Shown: positions 17,471-33,726 of the stretch, one piece after another
Position numbering within the stretch: the stretch's first letter is position 1
Layout: the number at the start of each line of letters is the position of its first letter
NCBI RefSeq assembly: GCF_009914755.1
Contig: NC_060935.1
Reading direction: 5' to 3' (one strand)
Source: the human T2T-CHM13v2.0 reference genome, Homo sapiens
DNA length: 64,000 nucleotides
Program-made: the position numbers and the translations under genes
The notes under the pieces: generated by a model
What the model was told of the DNA's origin: nothing
Databases searched by the model: none
The model's input: the letters and a program-made list of their open reading frames with translations, nothing else

Positions 17471-18816
17471 AATTTCTTTGACTGGAAATCCAACTTCTTC
17501 CATACAATATGTGGTAGGCATTTTTTTTTAAATAGTGATCATTGTAAATATAGTTTACATGGTCTAGAAATCACATATCAGTGAGGACTCTAGACTCCTC
17601 TCAGCCCTGAAAACATCTCTCAATACTTACACTAAATTTTAACATTCCATTTGCAACTTCACACCTTAGGTTTATGCATTCTCTTATTATCTTCCTCTGC
17701 TTTTCTTCCCTCTGCCTCTTGGATTTCTTATATCTGTGAATGGTACCAACATTTATCTGTGGACTCAACACATAAAACCTGGAATCAAGGATGCCTCCCA
17801 AGCCACCATTTTAACTAAAATGCCTTCTGAGTATGAAGTGGTGAAGGAAACTCTGTCACAAGGTTGCCCTACTGGAGATGTGTTCTGTTCTCTGAAGAAT
17901 CGTTATCCAGTCCCACTGCAATGAAGTCCATCATAGTAGTATGGAGTAGTCATTTTGAAGGCCTTCAAATACCCACTTTACAGTTTAGCTCCATTGTATG
18001 ACTAAACAAATGGAAACAGCCACATGTTTCTTTCCCTTTCCTTGATATGTGAGTTTCCCTAGACCTCCTGGCCTCTTTGTGCCCTTTGCTGCATACATGA
18101 ACAGAAACTGCCTCCCAGAGCAGATCTGCAAATAATTTTTCTGGCTGAGGCAACCTGAGGTCAAGAAACCATACAGCTGTCATCTCACAGTTACAGTCTA
18201 ATGGGAAGAAGCCTGAGGCACGGGTATCAGGCTCCCACACCATCAACCTCCTCACCAGCATTTCAGCTGAACAATAACCACAATTGATATAAGAACAAAG
18301 CCACTTCCCAAATATTTCTTTCTTTCTTTTTCTGCCCAGTATGCAATGCTTCCTGTTTCTCTAGTAATGAAAATGTGTTCATCTGTCAAATGGAAAGCTG
18401 CCCCACTGTCTTAGGTGCAGAGAACTTCAATCACAGCAGCTGCTGCGACCAGACCGAGAGCCAAGCTCCTCATTTGTTTTGGCTAACACTGAAGAATCAG
18501 TTTAGGCATCCCCTAGAACAAAATGGTGCACGGGAACAGAGCCAAGCTATGGAAGAGAAGCAGCAAAGTTGCAACAGATTATTTGTCTGCTAAAGCAGAA
18601 GGAGAAAGATATCAAAACCTGGATTCATTTGAGTCCAGCCTCCCTAACATATTCTCTATTTGCAACACAGATGATTTCCTCTAATATCATTCAACAGGTG
18701 CTAAACTGTAGCTTTTCTGAAGATTAATCATTGCAGCCTTGGCAACAGAGAATTAGGAAGTAACAAGGTGGCTCCCAGAATTCTTAGGCTATTTCTTCTG
18801 AGTACTCAGCACAGGG

Positions 18817-18819
<3 letters not shown>

Positions 18820-18902
<83 letters not shown>

Positions 18903-19403
18903 CTGTGTGTATATATATATACACACACCCAGTATATATGCACACATATATACACACACACATATATAATGTATATATATTATATAGCCATATAGTGTAT
19001 ACTCAGGGCAATATATATATACACTATATATATAACTTTCCATTTGACAAATGAACACATTTTCATTACTAGAGAAACAGGAAGCATTGCATACTGGGCA
19101 GAAAAAGAAAGAAAGAAATATTTGGGAAGTGGCTTTGTTGTTTCTTATATATAGGTATATGACATATATCTATATAGTGCCCTGTGCTGAGTATACACAC
19201 CCACCCACACACACCCACATACATACCACTACAACATATATAGTGATATATAAATATATAGTACATATATAGTACAATATATTATATATATTATAAATAT
19301 ATAGTACATATATGGCATATATGTATATAAATATATAGTACATATATAGTATATATGTGTATAAATATATAGTACATATATAATATATATGTGTGTATAT
19401 ATA
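18820..19403. repeat. Compound (TA)n/(TG)n/(CA)n microsatellite with embedded inverted copies of flanking DNA
   Basis: About 58 bp of pure (TA)n from 18820, then (GT)n; inverted insertions at 19036-19150 and 19171-19193; repeated aaatatatagtacatata units at ~19253-19381. Confidence 0.95.
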
Positions 19404-19625: not shown

Positions 19626-20400
19626 TTGCTGAGTTAAACTACAAAAATGCATGAATTATCAATCTTTCCATGTCATTAGGGAGATTTGAGTAAGCATGAT
19701 CATTTTTTGGCAATTTACCAGCACTGATTATCCTTAAAGCTCCATTTAGATTTTTATTTTCACCCATTTGAGACAAGGGCCAAGGCCACACAGATGTAAA
19801 TTATTTAATTGAGTCATTAAACCAAATCCATGTTGTGGTCCAGTTGGCCCACATAAAGAAAAACGTAGAGCTTGGGAATATGATATGGCTTCACTTTTTT
19901 CCAAATTTATCTGAAAATGGCTAACTTTGAACATCCTTTGAATATTGTAGGGCTCATTAGAGAAGGGGAACAGTGAAGCCAAACTCTAGGAAGAACAAAA
20001 AGAGAATTATATAGAAATCTTAGAATACTTAAATGCCTCAAAAATTTTGAGGGTCTATCTCAAGTCTGGCCAGCTTTTATTATAGAAGATTGCTTTCATA
20101 TGGCCAGCCTGTTTGTTCTGTATGGGGATATGTCCCAAGAACTATCTAAGTTAGATACTTTTCTAGGTCAAGATAAGCCAGTACACAGTGCAAGTGGATT
20201 ATGGATGTTGCAGTATGATCTACTGCCTGAATTTCCAAGTCTTAGATGAAGGTAGTGATCTGGAGTGAATGAATGGATCATTCATTCAACACAAAAGGGT
20301 GTCCAGTAGGAACTGAGTCATTGGCCTGGGAAACTGGAATGGAGAACGGAATGGCCTGGGAATGGAGAATCCTCAGCTTTGTCTTTAGTAGTTAGATCTT

Positions 20401-20838
20401 TGTGATGGTTAATACCGAGTGGCACCTTGATTGGATTGAGCGATACGGAAGTATTAATCCTGGGTGTGTCCGCATGGGTGTTGCCAAAGGGGATTAACAT
20501 TTGAATCAGTGGGCTGGGGAAGGCAGATCCACCCTTAATCTGGTAGACACAATCTAATCAACTTCCAGTAAATATAAAGCAGGCAGAAAAATGTGAAAAT
20601 GAAAGATGGGCCTAGCCTCCCAGCCTACATCTTTCTCCAGTGCTGGATGCTTCCTGCCCTTGAACATCAGACTCCAAGTTCCTCAGTTTTGGGACTCAGA
20701 CTGGCTCTCCTTGCTCCTCAGCTTGCAGACAGCCTATTGTGGAACCTTGTGATCATGTAAGTTAATACTTAACAAATTCCCCTTCATATATATGCCTCCT
20801 GTTAGTTCTGTCCCTCTAAGAGAACCCTGACTAATACA
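20401..20838 (+). mobile_element. 5' LTR, MLT2A1-like (438 bp)
   Basis: tgtgatggttaatac...ttgattggattga...agaaccctgactaataca. Confidence 0.95.
20428..20776 (+). promoter_or_regulatory. LTR promoter motifs: double-homeobox-like CAATCYAATCA sites, TATA box, splice donor, mutated poly(A) signal
   Basis: tgattggattg 20428-20438; caatctaatca 20550-20560; tataaa 20573-20578; cat|gtaagt 20757-20762; AACAAA at 20771-20776 where the 3' LTR has AATAAA. Activity is inferred, not shown. Confidence 0.5.
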
Positions 20839-20843
20839 GATTT

Positions 20844-20861
20844 TGGTACCAGGAGTGGTTC
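20844..20861 (+). other. Primer binding site (tRNA-Leu)
   Basis: tggtaccaggagtggttc immediately after the 5' LTR, complementary to a tRNA-Leu 3' end as expected for ERV-L. Confidence 0.8.
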
Positions 20862-20929
20862 TAGAGGAACAGAATACTAAGGATAGAGTTCTTTCATTGG
20901 TTTTAGGGTTTCTGGAATTGGCTGCTTAA

Positions 20930-22662
20930 TATGATTGACCCAAAAATGCTAAGGACTCTACTTCTAATAGTATGCAGAACACTGATAGTCCTTGGCATGA
21001 ACTATGTAGAGAGTTATGTAAAATAAATGCATTTGACACTCGGGATTCACTGCTCATGAGAGGCAAGGAGTTTAGTGACTCTATGCATAATACCTTCGAC
21101 CATATGTGGAGAATCAAGGAACATAATCAACCTGGTTGGTTGCTCCTAAGTTCAGTGACAAAGTGATGAAAGAAAATGATGAACTCAGGGATTCTGTCTC
21201 CCAGTTTCAGAAGCAGATACTGAGCCTCAAATATGCTAAGATTGCCCTGAGTGAGAGTCTTATCTCCTGTAGAGAAACAGCTGAAATTGTGGAAGAAGAC
21301 ATAAGCTTTTATCATGCGAGTGGCTGACCTGCAATGAAAGGTGCATGCACAGCCTCAACAGGTGTCTACTGTTAAAGTGAGGGCATTGATTGGAAAAGAT
21401 TGGGATTCTGAAGCTTGCGAATGGGGATGTGTGGGAGGACCCTGATGAAGCTGGGGACACTGAGTTTGTAAAACCTGATGAAACTTTTTTGCCAGAAGGA
21501 ACAGCTTCCCCATCCCCAGTAATGGCAACATCCCCTCCCTTACCCATGCTACCATCAGCATTTCCACCTCTGTCTGAGGAGATAAACCCTGCGCTGCCTG
21601 AGGCAACAGTGATGGCCTCCCTTGAGGCAGTTGCCAGGCTAAATAATGTTGATTCTCCTCAGGAGCCACGCCAACACCCCTGTTTGCTTCTAGACTTATA
21701 ACTAGACTAAAGTCCCAAACAGGCCCCTGGAGGTGAGGTTGAGATTGTGACCCATGAGGAGGTACGCTACACTCAAAACGAACTGTTTGAGGTCTCTAAT
21801 TTATATAAACAGCAATCTGGAGCACAGGCACAGGAATGGATATTAAGGGTATGAAATGATATGAATATTATTCATATTCATTTCAAGGTATGAAATGAAA
21901 TGAATGGATATTAAGGTATAAGGGAAAGAACACAGAGTTGGATCAGGCTGAATTTATTGACTTGGGCCCACTAAGTAGGGACTCTGCATTTAATGTTGCA
22001 GCTTGGGGAGTTAAAAAAGGTTCTAATAGTTTGTTTGCTTGGTTAGCCGAAACAAAGATTATAAGATGGCCCACTGTGAGTGAGCTGGAAATGCCTGATC
22101 TCCCTTGGTTTAATGCAGAGGAAAGGATCCAAAGGCTTAGGGAGATTGGGATAGTGGAGTGGATTAGTCACTTTAGACCTACTCATCCCAGAGGGTTCAG
22201 AAGATATACCCTTGACCAATGCCTTGCGAAATAGATTTGTGAGGGCAGTACCTGCATCTTTGAAGAGCTCTGTAATTGCTCTTCTCTGTATGTCACATCT
22301 AAAGGTGAGAAATGCAGCCACTCAACTACAAAATTTAAATACAATGGGAATAATTGGATCCCAAGTGGCAGCACTTAACTATCAAAGTCAAGGTGGGCAT
22401 GACTACCATAATGGACAGCAGAGGCAGCAGCAATCAGAATAGTCTGACTCATGTAGAGCTCTGGCATTGGCTAATTAATCACAGTGTTCTCAGAAGTGAA
22501 ATTAATAAGAAGCCTACTACGTTCCTACTTAAATTGTACAAACAGAAAACTTCTAGGTTGAATGGAAAAAAGATTAATTTAAATTATAAAAACAGAGAAT
22601 CACAGCCCCTCAATCAATTTCCAAACTTGAGCCAGTTTACAGACCCAGAACTCCTTGAATGA
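20930..22662 (+). pseudogene. gag: HERV-L gag remnant (many stops and frameshifts)
   Basis: Fragments 'SPWHELCRELCKI', 'GDVWEDPDEAGD', 'DQAEFIDLGPLSRDS', 'ELWHWLINH'; lies between the PBS and the protease. Confidence 0.85.
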
Positions 22663-22680
22663 AGGGGAGGCCAGGTCCCC

Positions 22681-23853
22681 TTGAGGAAGGACCCTACTAC
22701 ATTACCAACAATTTATGCAGTGGATCTTTCTCCCATCCTTCCACAAGGAAACTTCCAACCTTTTACCAGGGTAATTGTGCACTGGGGAAAGGGAAATGAT
22801 CAAACATTTCAAGGACTACTGGACACTGGCTCTGAGCTGACATTGATTCCAGGGGACCCAAAACATCATTATGGTCCTCCAGTTAAAGTAGGGGCTTATG
22901 GGGGTCAGGTAATTAATGGAGTTTTAGCTCAGGTCTTACTTACAGTGGATCCCCAGACTCATCCTGTGATCATTTCCCTAGTGCCAGAATGCATAATTTG
23001 CATAGACATACTTAGCAGCTGGCAGAACCCCCACATTGGCTCCCTGACTGGCAGACTGAGGGCTACTATGGTGGGAAAGGCCAAATGGAAGCCATTGGAG
23101 CTACCTCTACCTAGAATAATTGTAAATCAAAAACAATATCGCATCCCTGGAGAGATTGAGGAGATTAGTGCCACCATCAAGGACTTGAAAGATGCAGGGG
23201 TGGTGATTCCCACATCCTCATTCAACTCCCTGATTTGGCCTGTACAGAATACAGATGGATCTTGGAGAATGACAGTGGATTATTGGAAGCTTAACCAAGC
23301 GGTGACTCCAATTGCAGCTGCTGTACTAGACATGGTTTCATTGCTTGAACAATTAACACATCTCCTGGTACCTGGTATGCAGCCATTGACTTAGCAAATG
23401 TTTTTACTCCATTCCTATCCATAAGGTCCGCCAGAAGCAATTTGCCCTCAGCAGCAAGGCCAGCAATGTATCTTTACTGTCCTACCTCAGGGGTATATCA
23501 ACTCTCCAGCTTTGTGTCATAATCTTATTCAGAGAGACCTGGGTCGCTTTTTGCTTCCACAAGATATCACACTGGTCCATTACATTGATGACGTTATGCT
23601 GATTGGATCCAGTGAGCAAGAAGTAGCAAACACACTGGACTTATTGGGGAGACATTTGCATGCCAGAGGATGGGAAATAAATCTGACTAAAATTCAGGGA
23701 TCTTCTAACTCAGTAAAATTTCTAGGAGTCCAGTGGTGTGGGGCCTGTCGAGATATTCTTTCTAAGGTAAAGGATAAGTGGTTGCATTTGGCCCCTCCTA
23801 CAACCAAGAAAGAGGCACAATGCCTAGTGGGCCTATTTGGATTTTGGAAGTAA
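22681..23853 (+). pseudogene. pol: HERV-L protease and reverse transcriptase remnant
   Basis: Aspartic protease LLDTGSE; RT N-terminal '[16 protein letters not shown]'; catalytic 'HYIDD'; 'VKFLG'; frameshift and stops between 23394 and 23512. Confidence 0.93.
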
Positions 23854-25667
23854 CATATTCCTCATTTGAGTTGTTACTCTGGCCCATTTTTTGAGTGGCC
23901 TGAAAGGCTGCCAGTTTTGAATGGGGTCTACAACAAGACAAGTTTCTGCAGCAGGTACAGGCTGCTGCGCAAGCTGCTCTGTCACTTTGGCCATATGACC
24001 AGCAGATCCATTGGTGCTTGAGGTGTCAGTGGCAGATAGGGATGCTGTTTGGAGCCTTTGACGGGCTCCCATAGGTGAATTGCAGCAGAGGCTTCTAGGA
24101 TTTTGGAGCAAGTTCCTGCCATCTTCTGCAGATTAACTACTCTCATTTTGAGAGACAGCTCTTGGCCTGTTACTGGGCTTTGGTGGAAACCGAATGCTTG
24201 ACTATGGGTCATCAAGTCACCATATGACCTGAACTGCCTATCATGAACCGGGTGCTTTCTAACCCATCTAGCCATAAAGTGGGTCATGCACAGCAGAATT
24301 CCATCATTAGATGGAAGTGGTATATATGCGATTGGGCTCAAGCAGGTACTGAAGGCACAAGTAAGTTACATGAGGAAGTGGCTCAAATGTCCATGGTCTC
24401 TACTCCTGCCACCACCCTGCCTTCTCTCCCCCAGCCTGTACTGATGGCCTCATGGGGAGTTCCCTGTGATCAGTTGACAGAGGAAAAGAAGACTAGGGCC
24501 TGGTTCACAGATGGTTCTGCATGATATGCAGGCACCACCCAAAAGTGGACAGCTGCAGCACTTCAGCCCCTTTCTAGGACATCCCTGAAGAACAGCAGTG
24601 AAGGGAAATCTTTCCAGTGGGCAGAACTTCAAGCAGTGCACCCAGTTGTGCACTTTGCATGGATGGAGAAATGGCCAGAAGTGCAATTATATACTGATTC
24701 ATGGGCTGTAGTCAATGGTTTGACTGGATGGTCTGGGACTTGGAAGAAGCATAATTGGAAAATTGGTGACCAAAAAAATTTGGGGAAAGGTTACCCAGAT
24801 GGACCTCTCTGAATGGCCAAAAACTGAAGATATTTGTATCCCATGTGAGTACTTAACCAACGGGTGACCTCAGCAGTGGAGGAGTTTAATAATCAAGTGG
24901 ATAGGATGACCCATTCTGTGGACACCACTCAGCCTCTTTCCCCAGCCACCCCTGTCATCACCCAATGGGCCCATGAACAAAGTGGCCATTATGGCAGGGA
25001 TGAAAGTTACACATGGGCTCAGAAACATGGACTTCCACTTACCAAGGCTGATCTGGCTGTGGTCACTACTGAGTGCCCAATTTGCCAGCAGAGAGACCAA
25101 CACAGAGACCTCAATATGGCACCATTCCTTGGGGTGATCAGCCAGCCACTTGGTGGTAGGTTGACTATATTGAACCTCTTCCATCATGGAAAGGGCAGAG
25201 GTTTGTCCTCACTGGAATAGACACCCCAGATATTGGTTTGTCTATCCTGCACACAATGCTTCTGCCAAGACTATCATCCATGGACTCACGTAATGCCTTA
25301 TCCACCATTACGGTATTCCACATAGTGTTGCCTCTGACCAAGGCACTCACTTTACAGGTAAAGAAGTGTGGCAGTGGGCTCATGCTCACTGAATTCACTG
25401 GTCTTACCATGTTCCCTATCATCCTGAAGCATCTGGATTGACAGAACAGTGGAATGGCCTTTTGAAGTCACAATTACAATGCCAACTAGGTGACAATACT
25501 TTGCAGGGCTGGGGCAAAGTTATCCAGAAGGCCATGTATGCTCCGAATCAGTGTCCAGTATATGGCACTGTTTCTCCCATAGCCAGGATTCGTGGGCCCA
25601 GGAATCAAAGCGGGGAAGGGAAAGTGGCACCACTCACCATCACCCCTAGTGAACCACTAGCAAAATT
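23854..25667 (+). pseudogene. pol: HERV-L RNase H and integrase remnant
   Basis: 'AWFTDGSA' (RNase H); HHCC zinc finger 'HEQSGH...CPIC'; gcctctgaccaaggcactcacttt (ASDQGTHF); 'EQWNGLLK'; multiple frameshifts. Confidence 0.9.
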
Positions 25668-26087
25668 TTGCATCCTGTGCCTGCAACATTATGTTCTGCT
25701 AGCCTAGAGGTCTTAGTTCCAGAGGGAGGAATGCTGCCACCAGGAGACACAACAATTATTCCATTAAACTGGAAGTTAAGATTGCCACCTGGACACTCTG
25801 GGCTCCTCCTACCTTTAAGTCAACAGGCTAAGAAGAAGGGAGATACAATGTTGGCTGGGGTGATTGACCTGTACTATGAAGATGAAATCAGTCTACTACT
25901 CCACAACAGAAGTAAAGAAGAGTATATGTGGAATACAGGAGATCCATTAGGGTGTCTCTTAGTATTACCATACCCTGTGATTAAAGTCAATGGGAAACTA
26001 CAACAGCACAATCCAGACAGGACTACAAATGACCCAGACCCTTCAGGAGTGAAGGTTTGGGTCACTCCACCAGGAAAAAAACCATGA
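25668..26087 (+). pseudogene. HERV-L dUTPase-like domain downstream of integrase
   Basis: 'LPPGDTTIIPLNWKLRLPPGHSGLL...AGVIDLYYEDEISLLLHN' is a degenerate trimeric dUTPase motif set; this position after IN is characteristic of ERV-L. Confidence 0.85.
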
Positions 26088-26496
26088 CCTGCTGAGGTGC
26101 TTGCTGAAGGTAAAGGGAATACAGAATGGGTAGTAGAAGAAGGTAGTAATCAATACCAGCTATAACCATGTGACCAGCTGCAGAAACAAGGACTGTAACT
26201 GTCATGAGTATTTCCTCCTTCTTTTGTTAAAAACATGTTTGTGCATGCATACACTTGTACTAAGAACATATCTTCATTTTATTTCCTTTTCCTTTATCAT
26301 GTGACATAAGATTTATTGACTTCATATCAGCATTGAAGTATTGTTAACTTTATGTAATAGTATTTAGGTTGGGGATTGGTATGTTTCTGGTTGTACAAAG
26401 GATAGTTGTATTATGTTAGGTGTAACTATGACCTCATTATTGTCTTTATTTGAAGACTATGTATGATCTCAGGAGATGTGTATGGGTTCAAGATGA

Positions 26497-26509
26497 CAAG
26501 GGGTGGACT
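26497..26509 (+). other. Polypurine tract
   Basis: caaggggtggact immediately before the 3' LTR tgtg. Confidence 0.75.
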
Positions 26510-26879
26510 TGTGATAGTTAATACTGAGTGTCAACTTGATTGGATTGAGGGATACAGAAGTATTAATCCTGGGTGTGTCTTTGTGGGTGTTGCCAAAGGA
26601 GAATAACATTTGAGTCAGTGGGCCGGGGAAGGCAGACCCACCCTTAATCTGGTGCACACAATCCAATCAGCTTCTAGCAAATATAAAGCAGGCAGCAAAA
26701 TGTGAAAAGGCAAGACAGGCCTAGCCTCCTAGCTTACATCTTTCTCCTGCTGGATGCTTCCTGAACATCAGACTCCAAATTCTTCAGTTTTGGGACATGG
26801 ACTGGCTCTCTTTGTTCCTCAGCTTTCAGATGGCCTATTGTGGGACCTTGTGATCATGTAAATTAATACTTAATAAACT

Positions 26880-26928
<49 letters not shown>

Positions 26929-27060
26929 CACACACACACTTTATATATAAATATGTTAATACTTAATAAACTCCCAATAGATATATGTTAATACTTTATA
27001 TATATATGTTAATACTTAATAAACTCCCTATATATATATCCCGATTCCCTACATATATCC

Positions 27061-27096
<36 letters not shown>

Positions 27097-27150
27097 GGAT
27101 ATATATAGGGAGTTTATTAAGTGTATATATATATATGTGTGTGTGTGTGT

Positions 27151-30100
27151 ATATATACATAAGTGTATATACATAAGTGTATATATAAACATAAGTGTAT
27201 ATACATAAGTGCATATATAAACATAAGTGTATATACATAAGTGCATATATATACATAAGTGTATATACATAAGTGCATATATACATAAGTGTATATACAT
27301 AAGTGCGTATATATACATAAGTGTATATACATAAGTGCGTATATATACATAAGTGTATATACATAAGTGCGTATATATACATAAGTGTATATACATAAGT
27401 GCGTATATATACATAAGTGTATATACATAAGTGCGTATATATACATAAGTGTATATACATAAGTGTATATACATAAGTGCGTATATATACATAAGTGTAT
27501 ATACATAAGTGCGTATATATACATAAGTGTATATACATAAGTGCGTATATATACATAAGTGTATATATAAGTGCGTATATATACATAAGTGTATATATAT
27601 AAGTGCGTATATATACATAAGTGTATATATATATAAGTGTGTATATATACATAAGTGTATATAAATAAGTGTGTATATATACATAAGTGTATATATATAA
27701 GTGTGTATATATACATAAGTGTATATATATAAGTGTGTATATATACATAAGTGTATATATATAAGTGTGTATATATACATAAGTGTATATATATAAGTGT
27801 GTATATATACATAAGTGTATATATATAAGTGTGTATATATACATAAGTGTATATATATAAGTGTGTATATATACATAAGTGTATATATATAAGTGTGTAT
27901 ATATACATAAGTGTATATATATAAGTGTGTATATATACATAAGTGTATATAAAGTGTGTATATATACATAAGTGTACATATATACATAAGTGTACATATA
28001 TACATAAGTGTATATATATACATAAGTGTATATATACATAAGTGTATATATATACATAAGTGTATATATACATAAGTGTATATATATACATAAGTGTATA
28101 TATATAAGTGTATATATATACATAAGTGTATATATATAAGTGTATATATATACATAAGTGTATATATATACATAAGTGTATATATATAAGTGTATATATA
28201 TACATAAGTGTATATATATGTGTATATATATACATAAGTGTATATATATAAGTGTATATATATACATAAGTGTATATATATCAGTGTATATATATACATA
28301 AGTGTATATATATAAGTGTATATATATACATAAGTGTATATATATACATAAGTGTATATATATAAGTGTATATATATACATAAGTGTATATATATAAGTG
28401 TATATATATACATAAGTGTATATATATAAGTGTATATATATACATAAGTGTATATATACATAAGTGTATATATATAAGTGTATATATATACATAAGTGTA
28501 TATATATAAGTGTATATATATACATAAGTGTATATATATAAGTGTATATATATACATAAGTGTATATATATAAGTGTATATATACATAAGTGTATATATA
28601 TAAGTGTATATATATACATAAGTGTATATATATATAAGTGTATATATATACATAAGTGTATATATATATAAGTGTATATATATACATAAGTGTATATATA
28701 TATAAGTGTATATATATACATAAGTGTATATATATATAAGTGTATATATATACATAAGTGTATATATATATAAGTGTATATATATACATAAGTGTATATA
28801 TATATAAGTGTATATATATACATAAGTGTATATATATATAAGTGTATATATATACATAAGTGTATATATATATAAGTGTATATATATACATAAGTGTATA
28901 TATATATAAGTGTATATATATACATAAGTGTATATATATACGTAAGTGTATATATATATAAGTGTATATATATACGTAAGTGTATATATAAGTGTATATA
29001 TATACGTAAGTGTATATATAAGTGTATATATATACGTAAGTGTATATATAAGTGTATATATATACGTAAGTGTATATATAAGTGTATATATATACGTAAG
29101 TGTGTATATATAAGTGTATATATATACGTAAGTGTATGTATACAAGTGTATATATATACGTAAGTGTATGTATACAAGTGTACATATATACGTAAGTGTA
29201 TGTATACAAGTGTACATATATACGTAAGTGTATATACATAAGTGTACATATATACGTAAGTGTATATACATAAGTGTACATATATACGTAAGTGTATATA
29301 TATATAAGTGTATATATATACGTAAGTGTATATATATAAGTGTATATATATACGTAAGTGTATATATACATAAGTGTATATATATAAGTGTATATATATA
29401 CATAAGTGTATATATATATAAGTGTATATATATACATAAGTGTATATATACATAAGTGTATATATATACATAAGTGTATATATACATAAGTGTATATATA
29501 TACATAAGTGTATATATACATAAGTGTATATATATACAAGTGTATATATATACATAAGTGTATATATATACAAGTGTATATATATACATAAGTGTATATA
29601 TATATAAGTGTATATATATACATAAGTGTATATATATAAGTGTATATATATACATAAGTGTATATATATATAAGTGTATATATATACATAAGTGTATATA
29701 TATATAAGTGTATATATATACATAAGTGTATATATATAAGTGTATATATATACATAAGTGTATATATAAGTGTATATATATACATAAGTGTATATATAAG
29801 TGTATATATATACATAAGTGTATATACATAAGTGTATATATATAAGTGTATATATATACATAAGTGTATATATATAAGTGTATATATATACATAAGTGTA
29901 TATATATAAGTGTATATATATACATAAGTGTATATATATAAGTGTATATATATACATAAGTGTATATATATAAGTGTATATATATACATAAGTGTATATA
30001 TATAAGTGTATATATATACATAAGTGTATATATATAAGTGTATATATATACATAAGTGTATATATATAAGTGTATATATATACATAAGTGTATATATATA

Positions 30101-31180
30101 AGTGTATATATATACATAAGTGTATATATATAAGTGTATATATATACATAAGTGTATATATATACATAAGTGTATATATATACATAAGTGTATATATATA
30201 AGTGTATATATATACATAAGTGTATATATATATAAGTGTATATATATACATAAGTGTATATATATAAGTGTATATATATACATAAGTGTATATATATAAG
30301 TGTATATATATACATAAGTGTATATATATATAAGTGTATATATATACATAAGTGTATATATATATAAGTGTATATATATACATAAGTGTATATATATATA
30401 AGTGTATATATATACATAAGTGTATATATATAAGTGTATATATATACATAAGTGTATATATATAAGTGTATATATATACATAAGTGTATATATATAAGTG
30501 TATATACATAAGTGTATATATATAAGTGTATATATATACATAAGTGTATATATATAAGTGTATATATATACATAAGTGTATATATATAAGTGTATATATA
30601 TACATAAGTGTATATATATAAGTGTATATATATACATAAGTGTGTATATAAGTGTATATATATACATAAGTGTGTATATATAAGTGTATATATATACATA
30701 AGTGTGTATATATAAGTGTATATATATACATAAGTGTATATATATAAGTGTATATATATACATAAGTGTATATACATAAGTGTATATATATACATAAGTG
30801 TATATACATAAGTGTATACATATAAGTGTATATATATACATAAGTGTATACATATAAGTGTATATATATACATAAGTGTATACATATAAGTGTATATATA
30901 TACATAAGTGTATACATATAAGTGTATATATATACATAAGTGTATACATATAAGTGTATATATATACATAAGTGTATACATATAAGTGTATATATATACA
31001 TAAGTGTATACATATAAGTGTATATATATACATAAGTGTATATATATAAGTGTATATATATACATAAGTGTATATATATAAGTGTATATATATACATAAG
31101 TGTATATATATAAGTGTATATATATACATAAGTGTATATATAAGTGTATATATATATAAGTGTATATATATAAGTGTATA
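27151..31180. repeat. ~4 kb minisatellite of AAGTG(TA)n[CA]T monomers, often a 14+18 = 32-bp dimer
   Basis: More than 200 monomers anchored on taagtg; variants are clustered in blocks. Confidence 0.97.
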
Positions 31181-31195
31181 TATATGTGTATATAT

Positions 31196-32118
31196 ATACA
31201 CTTAATAAACTCAATAAAACTAAATAAAAGATATATATATCGGGATATATATATCTCCTATATATATATATCGGGATATATATATCTCTGATATATATAT
31301 ATATCGGGATATATATATCTCTGATATATATATATCTCTTATATATATAAATCTCTGATATATATATCTCTTATATATATAATATATATCTCTGATATAT
31401 ATATCTCTTATATATATAATATATATCTCTGATATATATATCTCTTATATATATAATATATATCTCCCTCCTATATATATATAGGAGATATATATATCTC
31501 TGATATATATATCTCCTATATATAATATATATCTCCTATATATATTATATATATCTCCTATATATATAATAGATATCTCCTATATATATTATATATATAT
31601 ATCCTATATATATTATATAGAGATTATACATATATTGGGATATATGTTAATACTTTATGTATATATGTTAATACTTAATAAACTCCCTATATATATCCCA
31701 ATATATATATCCCTATATTAAGTATATATACTTATATTAGTATATATATACTTATATTAAGTATATATACTTATATTAGTATATATATACTTATATTAAG
31801 TATATATATATACTTAATATATATACTATATATAATATATAATATTTAGTTTAAGTATATATATACTTATATTAAGTATATATATACACTTATATTAGGT
31901 ATAGATATACTTATATTAACTATATATATACTTAATAAACTATTATATACTTAATAAACTAAATAAACTAAAGATATATATATATCTGGATATACATATC
32001 TCATATATATAGATCTCCTATATATATATAATATATAGATCTCCTATATATATATAATATATAGATCTCCTATATATATATAATATATATCTCTCCTATA
32101 TATATATAATATATATCT
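31196..32118. repeat. Patchwork of short AT-rich sub-arrays and palindromes made from LTR junction words
   Basis: Repeated atatcgggat, atctctgatat, ctcctatatata, aagtatatatactt and cttaataaact. Confidence 0.9.
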
Positions 32119-33726
32119 CTCCTATTAATTCTGTCCCTTTAAGAGAACCCTGCCTAATACAATCTTCTACCTTGGCTGCCTCTCTTCCAAATCCACAGTG
32201 CTTGCTGGAATGAAGGCACCACAGAGGAAGCCTCCTTCGTTGAGTCCCTGCTCATTGCTGGACAGCAAGCTCTGCCCAGACCCCTCCGTAAAGGAGGGTT
32301 TAATCTTCTTTGCCCCATATATTTCATGCTTGTTTCCCCTATCTTCCTCTCACATTATCTCAATAGTAAAATGGTCAGTGCTCCACACACAAACTGATCT
32401 GATAACATTTAGTTGAAATGATTAAATTTAGCAAAATATTGGAGTAAAATTATTTAGTTCTGTGATACTATGTGGTTGGATCAAAATGATTTTCATTTCT
32501 TTGCTTAGTTCTGTTTTTCTACAGTATCAGGTTACTTAACTCTATCTTGTCAAATATCAGATTTGGGAATGTCAGGATAATAAAAGCAAGTTTTATTATT
32601 TCAAGATGGATATTTGGCGTTGTGTAGTCATAGCTTATCTGAGATAATATTTTAAGGATTAATATTGGAGCAGAACTAGAAGAAAGACATAGTTATTTAG
32701 CATACATGTGACATTTATGTCAAACAAGCATGGATTGAAATAAACCAATTTAATTTCCAAAAGCCCATTGCATTTAGCAGAAAATTTTGCATAATGCATG
32801 TAAACCTGTGCCATTGCCCCATAAGTCAAACTCTTCAAATTACTACTGGAGATTTCAATTCAACCCAAGCAAATGCATAGTATATATGTGCTTATATATA
32901 TGTAAAAATCTGAAGCCTCTGAGACAAAAGTCTTAAGACAATGTAGCAGGTGTCAATTTTTTACCAAGATAATGATGAGAACCCTAAATCAGAATGTTAC
33001 ATACTTAAAACCAATTTGTTTCAGTGGCATATACTCAAGTGTCAAGTATCAAATGCTTATTCAAAGAGAGACCTCATATGTCAGGTTTGTGCAAGACTGT
33101 TTCTGTTTATTTTCTTCCTTTAAGTATGCTCTTGTATCCCAAAGTATTTTCTTAAGGCTGAAATTTAGCCATCTGTGGTACAGGAACACAGGACTGGGAA
33201 GAACTTGACCCAGTTCCTTCAGGGATTACTTCTTGAACTCCTGAAAACTGTATTTAAAGTGGCTTACAAATGGCTGAGAATTCTTGCTTGATATTTTAAA
33301 ACCTATGATGGGAATCAGTTTTGGCTTTGAAACCAGGACTTAAGAGTATTAACACTAGGTCCTTCTTCTTAATCACAAGGCAAAAACTGCATGTAAATTT
33401 GGTACAACAATGATCGGCCACTTGGAATAAAACTCAAGATGCTGGAAAACATTGATTAGCCTTGAATACCATGTTAAAGGTAGAGTCTTGTTAAGTATAC
33501 CTACCAATACAGAGCCCTGTAATAGTACCAAACTGTTAAAAGGTAGAGGTGACCATAGAGCCCTCCTCCGTATGGGGAGCTCTGTTACTCTTGGGGTATG
33601 GCGTATTATAGTGACTACTGGGTTTCCTTATCAGGAAACTTTGGGTGAAATTTGGCTCTGCCTATATTTGAATCTCAAGCAAGTTACCTTGAGGAGTCAA
33701 CAACTCTGAGGCTTAATGAACTAAGA

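What the first reader, a model, noticed from the sequence alone, without database searches (positions are those of the whole stretch)
27014..27125. Fold-back palindrome that appears to create the satellite monomer from the inverted LTR poly(A) signal
Seen: acttaataaactccctatatatatatcccgat (27014-27045) is mirrored, apart from one AT unit, by atcgggatatatatagggagtttattaagt (27093-27122). An inner perfect palindrome atatatcccg-(AT)n-cgggatatat (27053-27104) is centred on a pure (AT)n tract. The inverted arm ends in ttattAAGTGTATATAT, which is the monomer anchor of the following 4 kb array. At the far end, atacacttaataaactc (31196-31212) is the reverse complement of gagtttattaagtgtat (27110-27126), so the array is bracketed by inverted copies of the LTR poly(A) region. 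Inference: hairpin self-priming or template switching at a cruciform-forming (AT)n inverted the junction, the new junction word was amplified, and a second switch restored orientation.
Basis: partly seen in the sequence, partly recalled or inferred. Interest (0 to 1): 0.7.

Follow-up and report, generated by a model that had tools for sequence, protein, structure and literature searches.

The report
Fold-back junction seeding a human minisatellite
Inside the end-repeat of a dead retroviral insertion on human chromosome 11, a short AT run has grown to 5.2 kb and holds a back-to-front copy of its own flank, likely made when DNA synthesis folded back on itself, and the join it left likely became the unit of a 4 kb tandem repeat; the same back-to-front copy sits in several sister elements, so this is a clear example of a known process.

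Summary
The palindrome is real and exact (1 of 2000 shuffles match it). It lies in the (AT)n tract of the 3' LTR of an ERV-L-type provirus. The sister 5' LTR has an 8-nt tract and no inverted copy, so the 5.2 kb grew after insertion. The same inverted LTR word occurs at 8 loci genome-wide against 0.02 expected. One of them (chr4) has the identical junction without an array, and another (L095) has three tandem copies of the inverted word. A second (TA)n tract in the window, outside the provirus, also holds inverted flank copies, so the driver is (TA)n, not the poly(A) signal. The 249-unit array is strictly head-to-tail: fold-back at most supplied the seed, and ordinary tandem duplication did the expansion. 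Caveats: only TAAGT comes from the LTR word; the same monomer arose without any LTR on chr5; the far 'bracket' can arise by direct copying; cruciform extrusion was not tested. Template switching in VNTRs and LTR-born minisatellites are both in print. Verdict: partly supported, new member of a known kind.

The parts
20396..20400 (+). left target-site duplication (ATCTT)
   Evidence: identical to 32162-32166
20401..20838 (+). 5' LTR of the provirus; internal control with an 8-nt AT tract and no inverted word
   Evidence: 42 mismatches in 370 aligned columns to the 3' LTR head, K2P 0.125
20839..26509 (+). broken ERV-L-type internal region: RT, RNase H, weak integrase zinc domain, dUTPase; purine-rich tract before the 3' LTR
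26510..26881 (+). 3' LTR, part upstream of the AT tract, ending in the native word ACTTAATAAACTC (26868-26880) that holds AATAAA
26882..26941 (.). (AT)21 followed by a (CA)n run
26944..27049 (+). two direct copies of the LTR word, 53 nt apart
   Evidence: (family D3)
27014..27037 (+). outer left arm of the fold-back
27053..27104 (.). perfect 52-nt palindrome centred on (AT)16 (27063-27094)
27099..27122 (-). inverted copy of the LTR word (outer right arm); its end is the first AAGTG of the array
27119..31198 (+). head-to-tail minisatellite: 249 AAGTG(TA)n[CAT] units of mostly 12-18 nt, 26 types, dominant 32-nt dimer, no reversed unit
   Evidence: single locus
31189..31212 (+). forward copy of the LTR word with the CACTT variant; exact reverse complement of 27110-27133
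31231..31635 (.). small arrays of CGGG, CTCTG and CTCC words in (AT)n, with local palindromes (31468-31487, 31485-31500)
31640..32115 (+). second block, a direct duplicate of the start (26981-27062) and end (31186-31262) of the first block; holds a short two-way TAAGTA/TACTT array (31714-31930) where the first block has the 4 kb array
   Evidence: (alignments)
32116..32161 (+). 3' LTR tail downstream of the tract
32162..32166 (+). right target-site duplication (ATCTT)

Best explanation
The palindrome is an inverted copy of the LTR sequence flanking a self-complementary (AT)n tract, likely made by fold-back (template-switch) synthesis, and its return junction likely became the TAAGTG(TA)n unit of a 4 kb head-to-tail array that likely grew by ordinary tandem duplication. 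Steps: (1) shown: the tract was short when the provirus inserted and is now 5.2 kb; (2) shown: it is built from LTR flank words in both orientations joined by (AT)n; (3) inferred: a nascent 3' end inside (AT)n pairs with itself or the other strand, copies the flank backwards for about 25-30 nt and returns to the tract on a 2-3 nt microhomology, the G probably coming from a (TG)n interruption; (4) inferred: slippage between the TA runs on both sides of the junction word duplicated it; (5) shown: the array is one-directional, with a dimer period and clustered variants; inferred: it grew by slippage or unequal exchange, not by further fold-backs. No function is proposed.
For: 5' LTR of the same provirus (matching 5-bp TSD) has an 8-nt tract and no inverted word. 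Inverted match beats 1999 of 2000 shuffles. The word followed by its reverse complement within 150 nt occurs at 8 loci, control 0, expected 0.02; the 7 other loci show LTR sequence around the tract by eye. chr4 locus L010/L029 has the same inverted junction with G and no array. L095 has three tandem copies of the inverted word (by eye). L052 and L122 are 2.2 and 1.1 kb tracts with the inverted word at the far end. In 49 scoreable LTRs, 4 have significant inverted flank copies, and 3 have 6 or more informative steps against 0.29 expected. The array's first unit is the junction, and none of 249 units is reversed. The duplicate block holds the un-mutated TAAGTA form paired with TACTT in palindromes. 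A second (TA)n tract at 18820 holds a 23-nt inverted flank copy and a 107-nt inverted insertion.
Against: The LTR contributes only 5 nt (TAAGT) to the monomer. A 4-copy array of the same monomer, interleaved with TATGTG units, lies at chr5 (L123) with no LTR match, so it can arise by point change. The reversed control pattern has 102 genome matches, so arrays of this style are not special. L095 itself is not significant against shuffles (p = 0.15), nor are short inverted words in general (6 observed, 4.0 expected). Forward (TA)n-CACTT copies arose without inversion in L030 and L034. The order of events is read from one haplotype; no other human or ape allele was available.
Confidence: 0.7

Rival explanations
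1. Array first: the AAGTG unit arose by a T-to-A change in a (TA)n(TG)n tract and expanded; a later fold-back ended on it because TAAGT offered microhomology. The palindrome is then a consequence of the array, not its source.
For: L123 shows this monomer arising without LTR, mixed with TATGTG units. TATGTG units also occur in this array (monomers P, W, Z). It would explain the untemplated G.
Against: The G-type junction occurs without any array at chr4, and the G-type word occurs in L030 and L034. Three-copy arrays of this monomer were seen at only one other locus among the listed matches (55 matches unlisted, about 4 not accounted for by the window), so a chance meeting with the junction is unlikely.
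Confidence: 0.17
2. The inverted copy came from repair of a double-strand break in the (AT)n hairpin or cruciform (fold-back priming at the broken end, then end joining) and not from a switch at an intact replication fork. This differs from the best explanation only in the trigger.
For: Foreign or distant inserts inside (TA)n tracts: the 107-nt inverted insert at 19036-19142, about 200 nt of non-repeat sequence in L122, and a whole inverted LTR pair joined at the tract in L071. Yeast DSBs give 5-34 bp fold-back inverted duplications (PMC11724301, abstract).
Against: No deletion of flank or non-templated filler was seen at the 27095-27123 junctions; sequence alone cannot separate the two triggers.
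Confidence: 0.3
3. Chance symmetry of AT-rich DNA, or an assembly artefact.
For: 82% A+T; (AT)n is self-complementary; one assembly only.
Against: (shuffles); recurrence at 7 other loci; ordered blocks of monomer variants.
Confidence: 0.03

Closest known systems
Short-range template-switch mutations (Löytynoja and Goldman 2017 PMC5453318, search listing only; Walker 2021 PMC7954356, passages; Löytynoja 2022 PMC9435742 / bioRxiv 10.1101/2021.11.26.470150, passages and Fig. S2 legend)
   Same: Short inverted copy of nearby sequence leaving a perfect inverted repeat; AT-rich context. The 2022 paper states there is strong evidence of many VNTRs evolving through template switching and shows an AT/GT/AC example.
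   Different: Those studies filtered out low-complexity or repeat-masked sites. The passages read do not trace a junction into a kilobase array.
Minisatellites born inside LTRs or other transposons (mouse Ms6-hm in a MaLR LTR, Kelly 1994, seen only as a table row and reference in PMC6947457; Ahmed and Liang 2012 PMC3389668, passages)
   Same: A tandem array expanded inside an LTR after insertion.
   Different: The model given there is direct duplication between short flanking repeats; here the unit is in reverse orientation to the LTR. Ahmed and Liang excluded repeats under 40% GC, which excludes this one.
AT-rich minisatellites of rare fragile sites FRA10B and FRA16B (PMC9714581, passages)
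   Same: Kilobases of AT-rich, hairpin-prone minisatellite; a 291-nt piece of this array folds at z = -9.2; the whole tract is 5.2 kb and FRA10B is fragile above 5 kb.
   Different: 82% A+T against 91%; unit 12-18 nt against 33-42 nt; the review has no mention of 11q24; fragility untested.
Fold-back inverted duplications at DNA breaks (PMC11724301, abstract; PMC3907307, search listing)
   Same: Microhomology-primed inverted copy of 5-34 bp next to the site.
   Different: Induced breaks in yeast, or megabase rearrangements; no repeat expansion follows.

Membership tests
ERV-L (HERVL with MLT2-type LTRs) provirus | two LTRs (TG...CA) with a 5-bp target-site duplication | tested here: met
   the 5-bp length as typical of ERV-L is recalled
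ERV-L (HERVL with MLT2-type LTRs) provirus | pol domains followed by dUTPase, no env | tested here: met
   RVT_1 E 2.4e-17, RNase_H 6.8e-9, dUTPase 1.8e-9, integrase zinc domain below cut-off; 5 of 14 frames matched, none to env; ERVL encodes dUTPase (PMC5753468)
ERV-L (HERVL with MLT2-type LTRs) provirus | match to a named LTR subfamily (MLT2A1, MLT2A2, MLT2B) | not testable with these tools
   no repeat library; the MLT2 label is recalled, the HERVL-MLT2 pairing is
Short-range template-switch mutation | short segment exactly reverse-complementary to nearby sequence, creating an inverted repeat | tested here: met
Short-range template-switch mutation | ancestral and derived alleles compared to place the four switch points | tested here: inconclusive
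   only the 5' LTR and paralogs serve as outgroups; no orthologous allele
Minisatellite / VNTR | head-to-tail units of 7-100 nt at one locus | tested here: met
Minisatellite / VNTR | copy number varies between people | not testable with these tools
   one haplotype held
Satellite DNA family | very long or multi-locus arrays | tested here: not met
   4.1 kb; 33 of 33 matches of the 38-nt dimer probe lie in this array
AT-rich rare fragile site (FRA10B/FRA16B type) | multi-kb AT-rich hairpin-forming minisatellite | tested here: inconclusive
   5.2 kb, 82% A+T, predicted hairpins; less AT-rich than FRA10B
AT-rich rare fragile site (FRA10B/FRA16B type) | chromosome gap induced by BrdU or distamycin A | not testable with these tools
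   needs cytogenetics

The most novel reading that the evidence does not exclude
The (AT)n tract of ERV-L LTRs is a genome-wide replicated experiment in minisatellite birth: about a thousand copies with a known starting sequence show every stage, from single fold-back junction (chr4) through short array of the inverted word (L095) to 4 kb array (this locus). Fold-back junctions would then be a general, so far uncounted source of new minisatellite units in (TA)n DNA that published template-switch scans filtered out.
Probability: 0.35. Interest if true: 0.55.

Novelty: new member of a known kind. Interest (0 to 1): 0.3.

Why it matters
Where a minisatellite unit comes from is usually unknowable, because the starting sequence is gone. 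Here the sister LTR and about a thousand paralogs preserve it, so the fold-back route to a new unit can be counted and dated with existing ape and pangenome assemblies. The locus itself has no sign of function: no gene overlaps it, and MIR100HG ends about 9 kb away. A long hairpin-prone TA tract is at most a candidate breakage site.

Tried and rejected
Poly(A)-signal-specific or retrotransposition-linked origin: rejected. The inverted copies are absent from the 5' LTR, right-flank words are inverted too (L070, L118), and a (TA)n tract outside the provirus shows the same. Satellite family: rejected. Fold-back as the engine of the 4 kb expansion: rejected, no reversed unit in 249. A first null used match length with a threshold and was dominated by the AT centre; it was replaced by the informative-step null. 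A first paralog survey (inverted match of 10 nt or more in 6 of 53, reversed control 0, complement control 2) mis-called several tract ends and was replaced. A search for three-copy arrays of the A-type word gave 16 matches against 34 for the control: no enrichment. Of its 9 loci outside the window, 4 had an LTR head, mostly with forward or mixed copies. The 17-nt junction words are not much commoner than their controls (6 vs 4; 11 vs 8). Widening the gap to 151-500 nt added no new locus. Literature searches for MLT2 + microsatellite + AT-rich (0 papers), MLT2A + repeats, TA repeats + MLT2/ERVL + WRN and MIR100HG + VNTR listed no paper on this locus or this LTR tract; the WRN preprint has no mention of LTR, ERV or fold-back. 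The Nature 2020 paper on WRN and (TA)n repeats was not held. Earlier scan findings were not available.

Full report
1. Observation. All sequence claims hold. The inner 52-nt palindrome is the only perfect palindrome of 22 nt or more with four or more G/C in 26860-32130. The outer arms match exactly over 24 nt with 10 steps that are not purine-pyrimidine alternation; 1 of 2000 dinucleotide shuffles of the region reached that score. Folding of 27014-27122 gives z = -9.9. About 21 extra nt on the left arm loop out.

2. Setting. A genome search with the unique sequence upstream gave 3427 candidates (40 scored) and one copy 6 kb upstream in the window. That copy (20401-20838) and 26510-32161 are the two LTRs of one provirus: both outer ends carry ATCTT, and the interior has broken frames matching RT, RNase H and dUTPase (5 of 14 frames matched any family). 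This is the ERV-L layout (PMC5753468, passages). The subfamily name MLT2 is recalled, not tested. The LTR heads differ at 42 of 370 columns (K2P 0.125), roughly 25-40 million years at recalled neutral rates. The 5' LTR has an 8-nt AT tract and no inverted word. The whole 5.2 kb therefore grew in place after insertion.

3. Anatomy. Splitting the tract at (AT)n runs shows that the left- and right-flank words of the LTR recur in both orientations. The left-flank word occurs forward five times (26868, 26961, 27014, 31200, 31673) and inverted once (27110). Right-flank CTCC words are repeated, and folded back at 31468-31487. The start and end of block 26981-31635 align to block 31640-32125, so a tandem block duplication is part of the history. 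The second block has a short two-way TAAGTA/TACTT array where the first has the 4 kb array. The history is thus many switches and duplications, not two.

4. The array. It has 249 units of 26 types in 27119-31198; long and short units alternate at 191 of 248 steps (shuffle mean 119, maximum 148 in 10,000); variants come in local blocks; no ACTT occurs in 27119-31190. A 38-nt dimer probe matches 33 times in the genome, all here. This pattern fits direct tandem duplication. The first unit is the end of the inverted arm. The LTR supplies TAAGT; the next G is not in the LTR word.

5. Paralogs as outgroups. The word followed by its reverse complement within 150 nt occurs as 10 pairs at 8 loci including this one, control 0. 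From 679 and 643 occurrences of the word, 0.02 are expected. The 7 other loci show LTR head and tail around the tract, by eye. For a less selected sample, the first 100 listed occurrences were merged into 91 regions; 71 were fetched, and 59 had an LTR head. Eight were dropped (five with insertions, two truncated or unscored, and L071, a whole inverted LTR pair joined at the tract) and two had no tail, leaving 49. Their median tract is 44 nt; 15 are 100 nt or more (one of these, L100, is probably over-called). Four (L052, L070, L076, L118) have inverted flank copies at p = 0.005 against 200 per-locus shuffles; matches with 6 or more informative steps number 3 against 0.29 expected; matches with 4 or more are not above chance (6 against 4.0). 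Sampling by the word favours loci with several copies. L052 (2.2 kb) and L122 (1.1 kb; picked because it held an inverted pair) carry the inverted word at the far end of long tracts. L095 has three tandem copies of the inverted word but is not significant on its own (p = 0.15).

6. Results against. The monomer also forms a 4-copy array at chr5:24.732 Mb, mixed with TATGTG units, with no LTR match. The reversed control pattern has 102 matches. Of 6 genome matches to the G-type junction 17-mer, two are here, one is chr4, two are forward copies made without inversion (L030, L034) and one has no LTR. So the far bracket could be a direct copy, although its 24-nt exact match including the derived C favours a fold-back from the junction made while the array was short. 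In the window, the other long (TA)n locus (18820) holds a 23-nt inverted flank copy and a 107-nt, 98% identical inverted insertion of 18291-18397. This supports the mechanism but removes any special role for the LTR or its AATAAA.

7. Mechanism. Shown: post-insertion growth, inverted flank copies, recurrence, a one-directional array starting at the junction. Inferred: fold-back priming in (AT)n, return on a short microhomology, slippage duplicating the junction, expansion by slippage or unequal exchange. Not tested: cruciform extrusion, break versus fork trigger, polymorphism. Confidence 0.7 for junction-first, 0.17 for array-first; the break-repair trigger (0.3) is compatible with either order.

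8. Known work. Löytynoja 2022 states that many VNTRs evolve through template switching and shows an AT/GT example, then removes such sites (11 of 22 supplements not searched). Walker 2021 reports AT-rich context at switch sites and filters masked sequence. LTR-born minisatellites are reviewed in PMC6947457. Ahmed and Liang excluded AT-rich arrays. FRA10B and FRA16B are the nearest long AT-rich arrays. Ten searches of the open library listed no paper on this locus or on fold-backs in this LTR tract; most subscription papers and VNTR catalogues were not covered.

9. Verdict. A real and unusually legible case that combines two known processes. No function is evident. Interest 0.3; new member of a known kind. 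The most useful outcome is the paralog series, which makes the birth of a minisatellite unit countable.

Noticed in passing
window 18803-19193: A second (TA)n tract, outside the provirus, holds a 23-nt inverted copy of its left flank (19171-19193) and a 107-nt, 98% identical inverted insertion of 18291-18397 at 19036-19142: a templated insertion that probably arose recently.
   Followed up: partly
L071 (chr1:55,611,028-55,612,440): Two LTR heads face each other, joined at the AT tract: a fold-back that copied much of the LTR backwards, or an inversion with a breakpoint in the tract.
   Followed up: no
L122 about 575-760 (chr1:174.585 Mb): About 200 nt of non-repeat sequence sits inside a 1.1 kb LTR tract; its source was not traced.
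   Followed up: no
L012 (chr7:106.148 Mb): An inverted copy of about 60 nt of LTR, with a further partly repeated copy; the fold-back centre is a short GC-containing palindrome, not (AT)n.
   Followed up: no
L104, L105, L106, L108 (chr1:120.9, 144.3, 146.4, 148.8 Mb): The same short Alu-like element (label by eye) is inserted at the LTR word with a duplication of the word, in four near-identical copies, likely segmental duplications.
   Followed up: no
window 27119-31198: The commonest unit contains the palindrome TGTATATATATACA (83 occurrences), so its CAT ending may itself be a small fold-back; a 291-nt piece folds at z = -9.2.
   Followed up: partly
window 20760-20790: The 5' LTR has AACAAA where the 3' LTR has AATAAA.
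   Followed up: no
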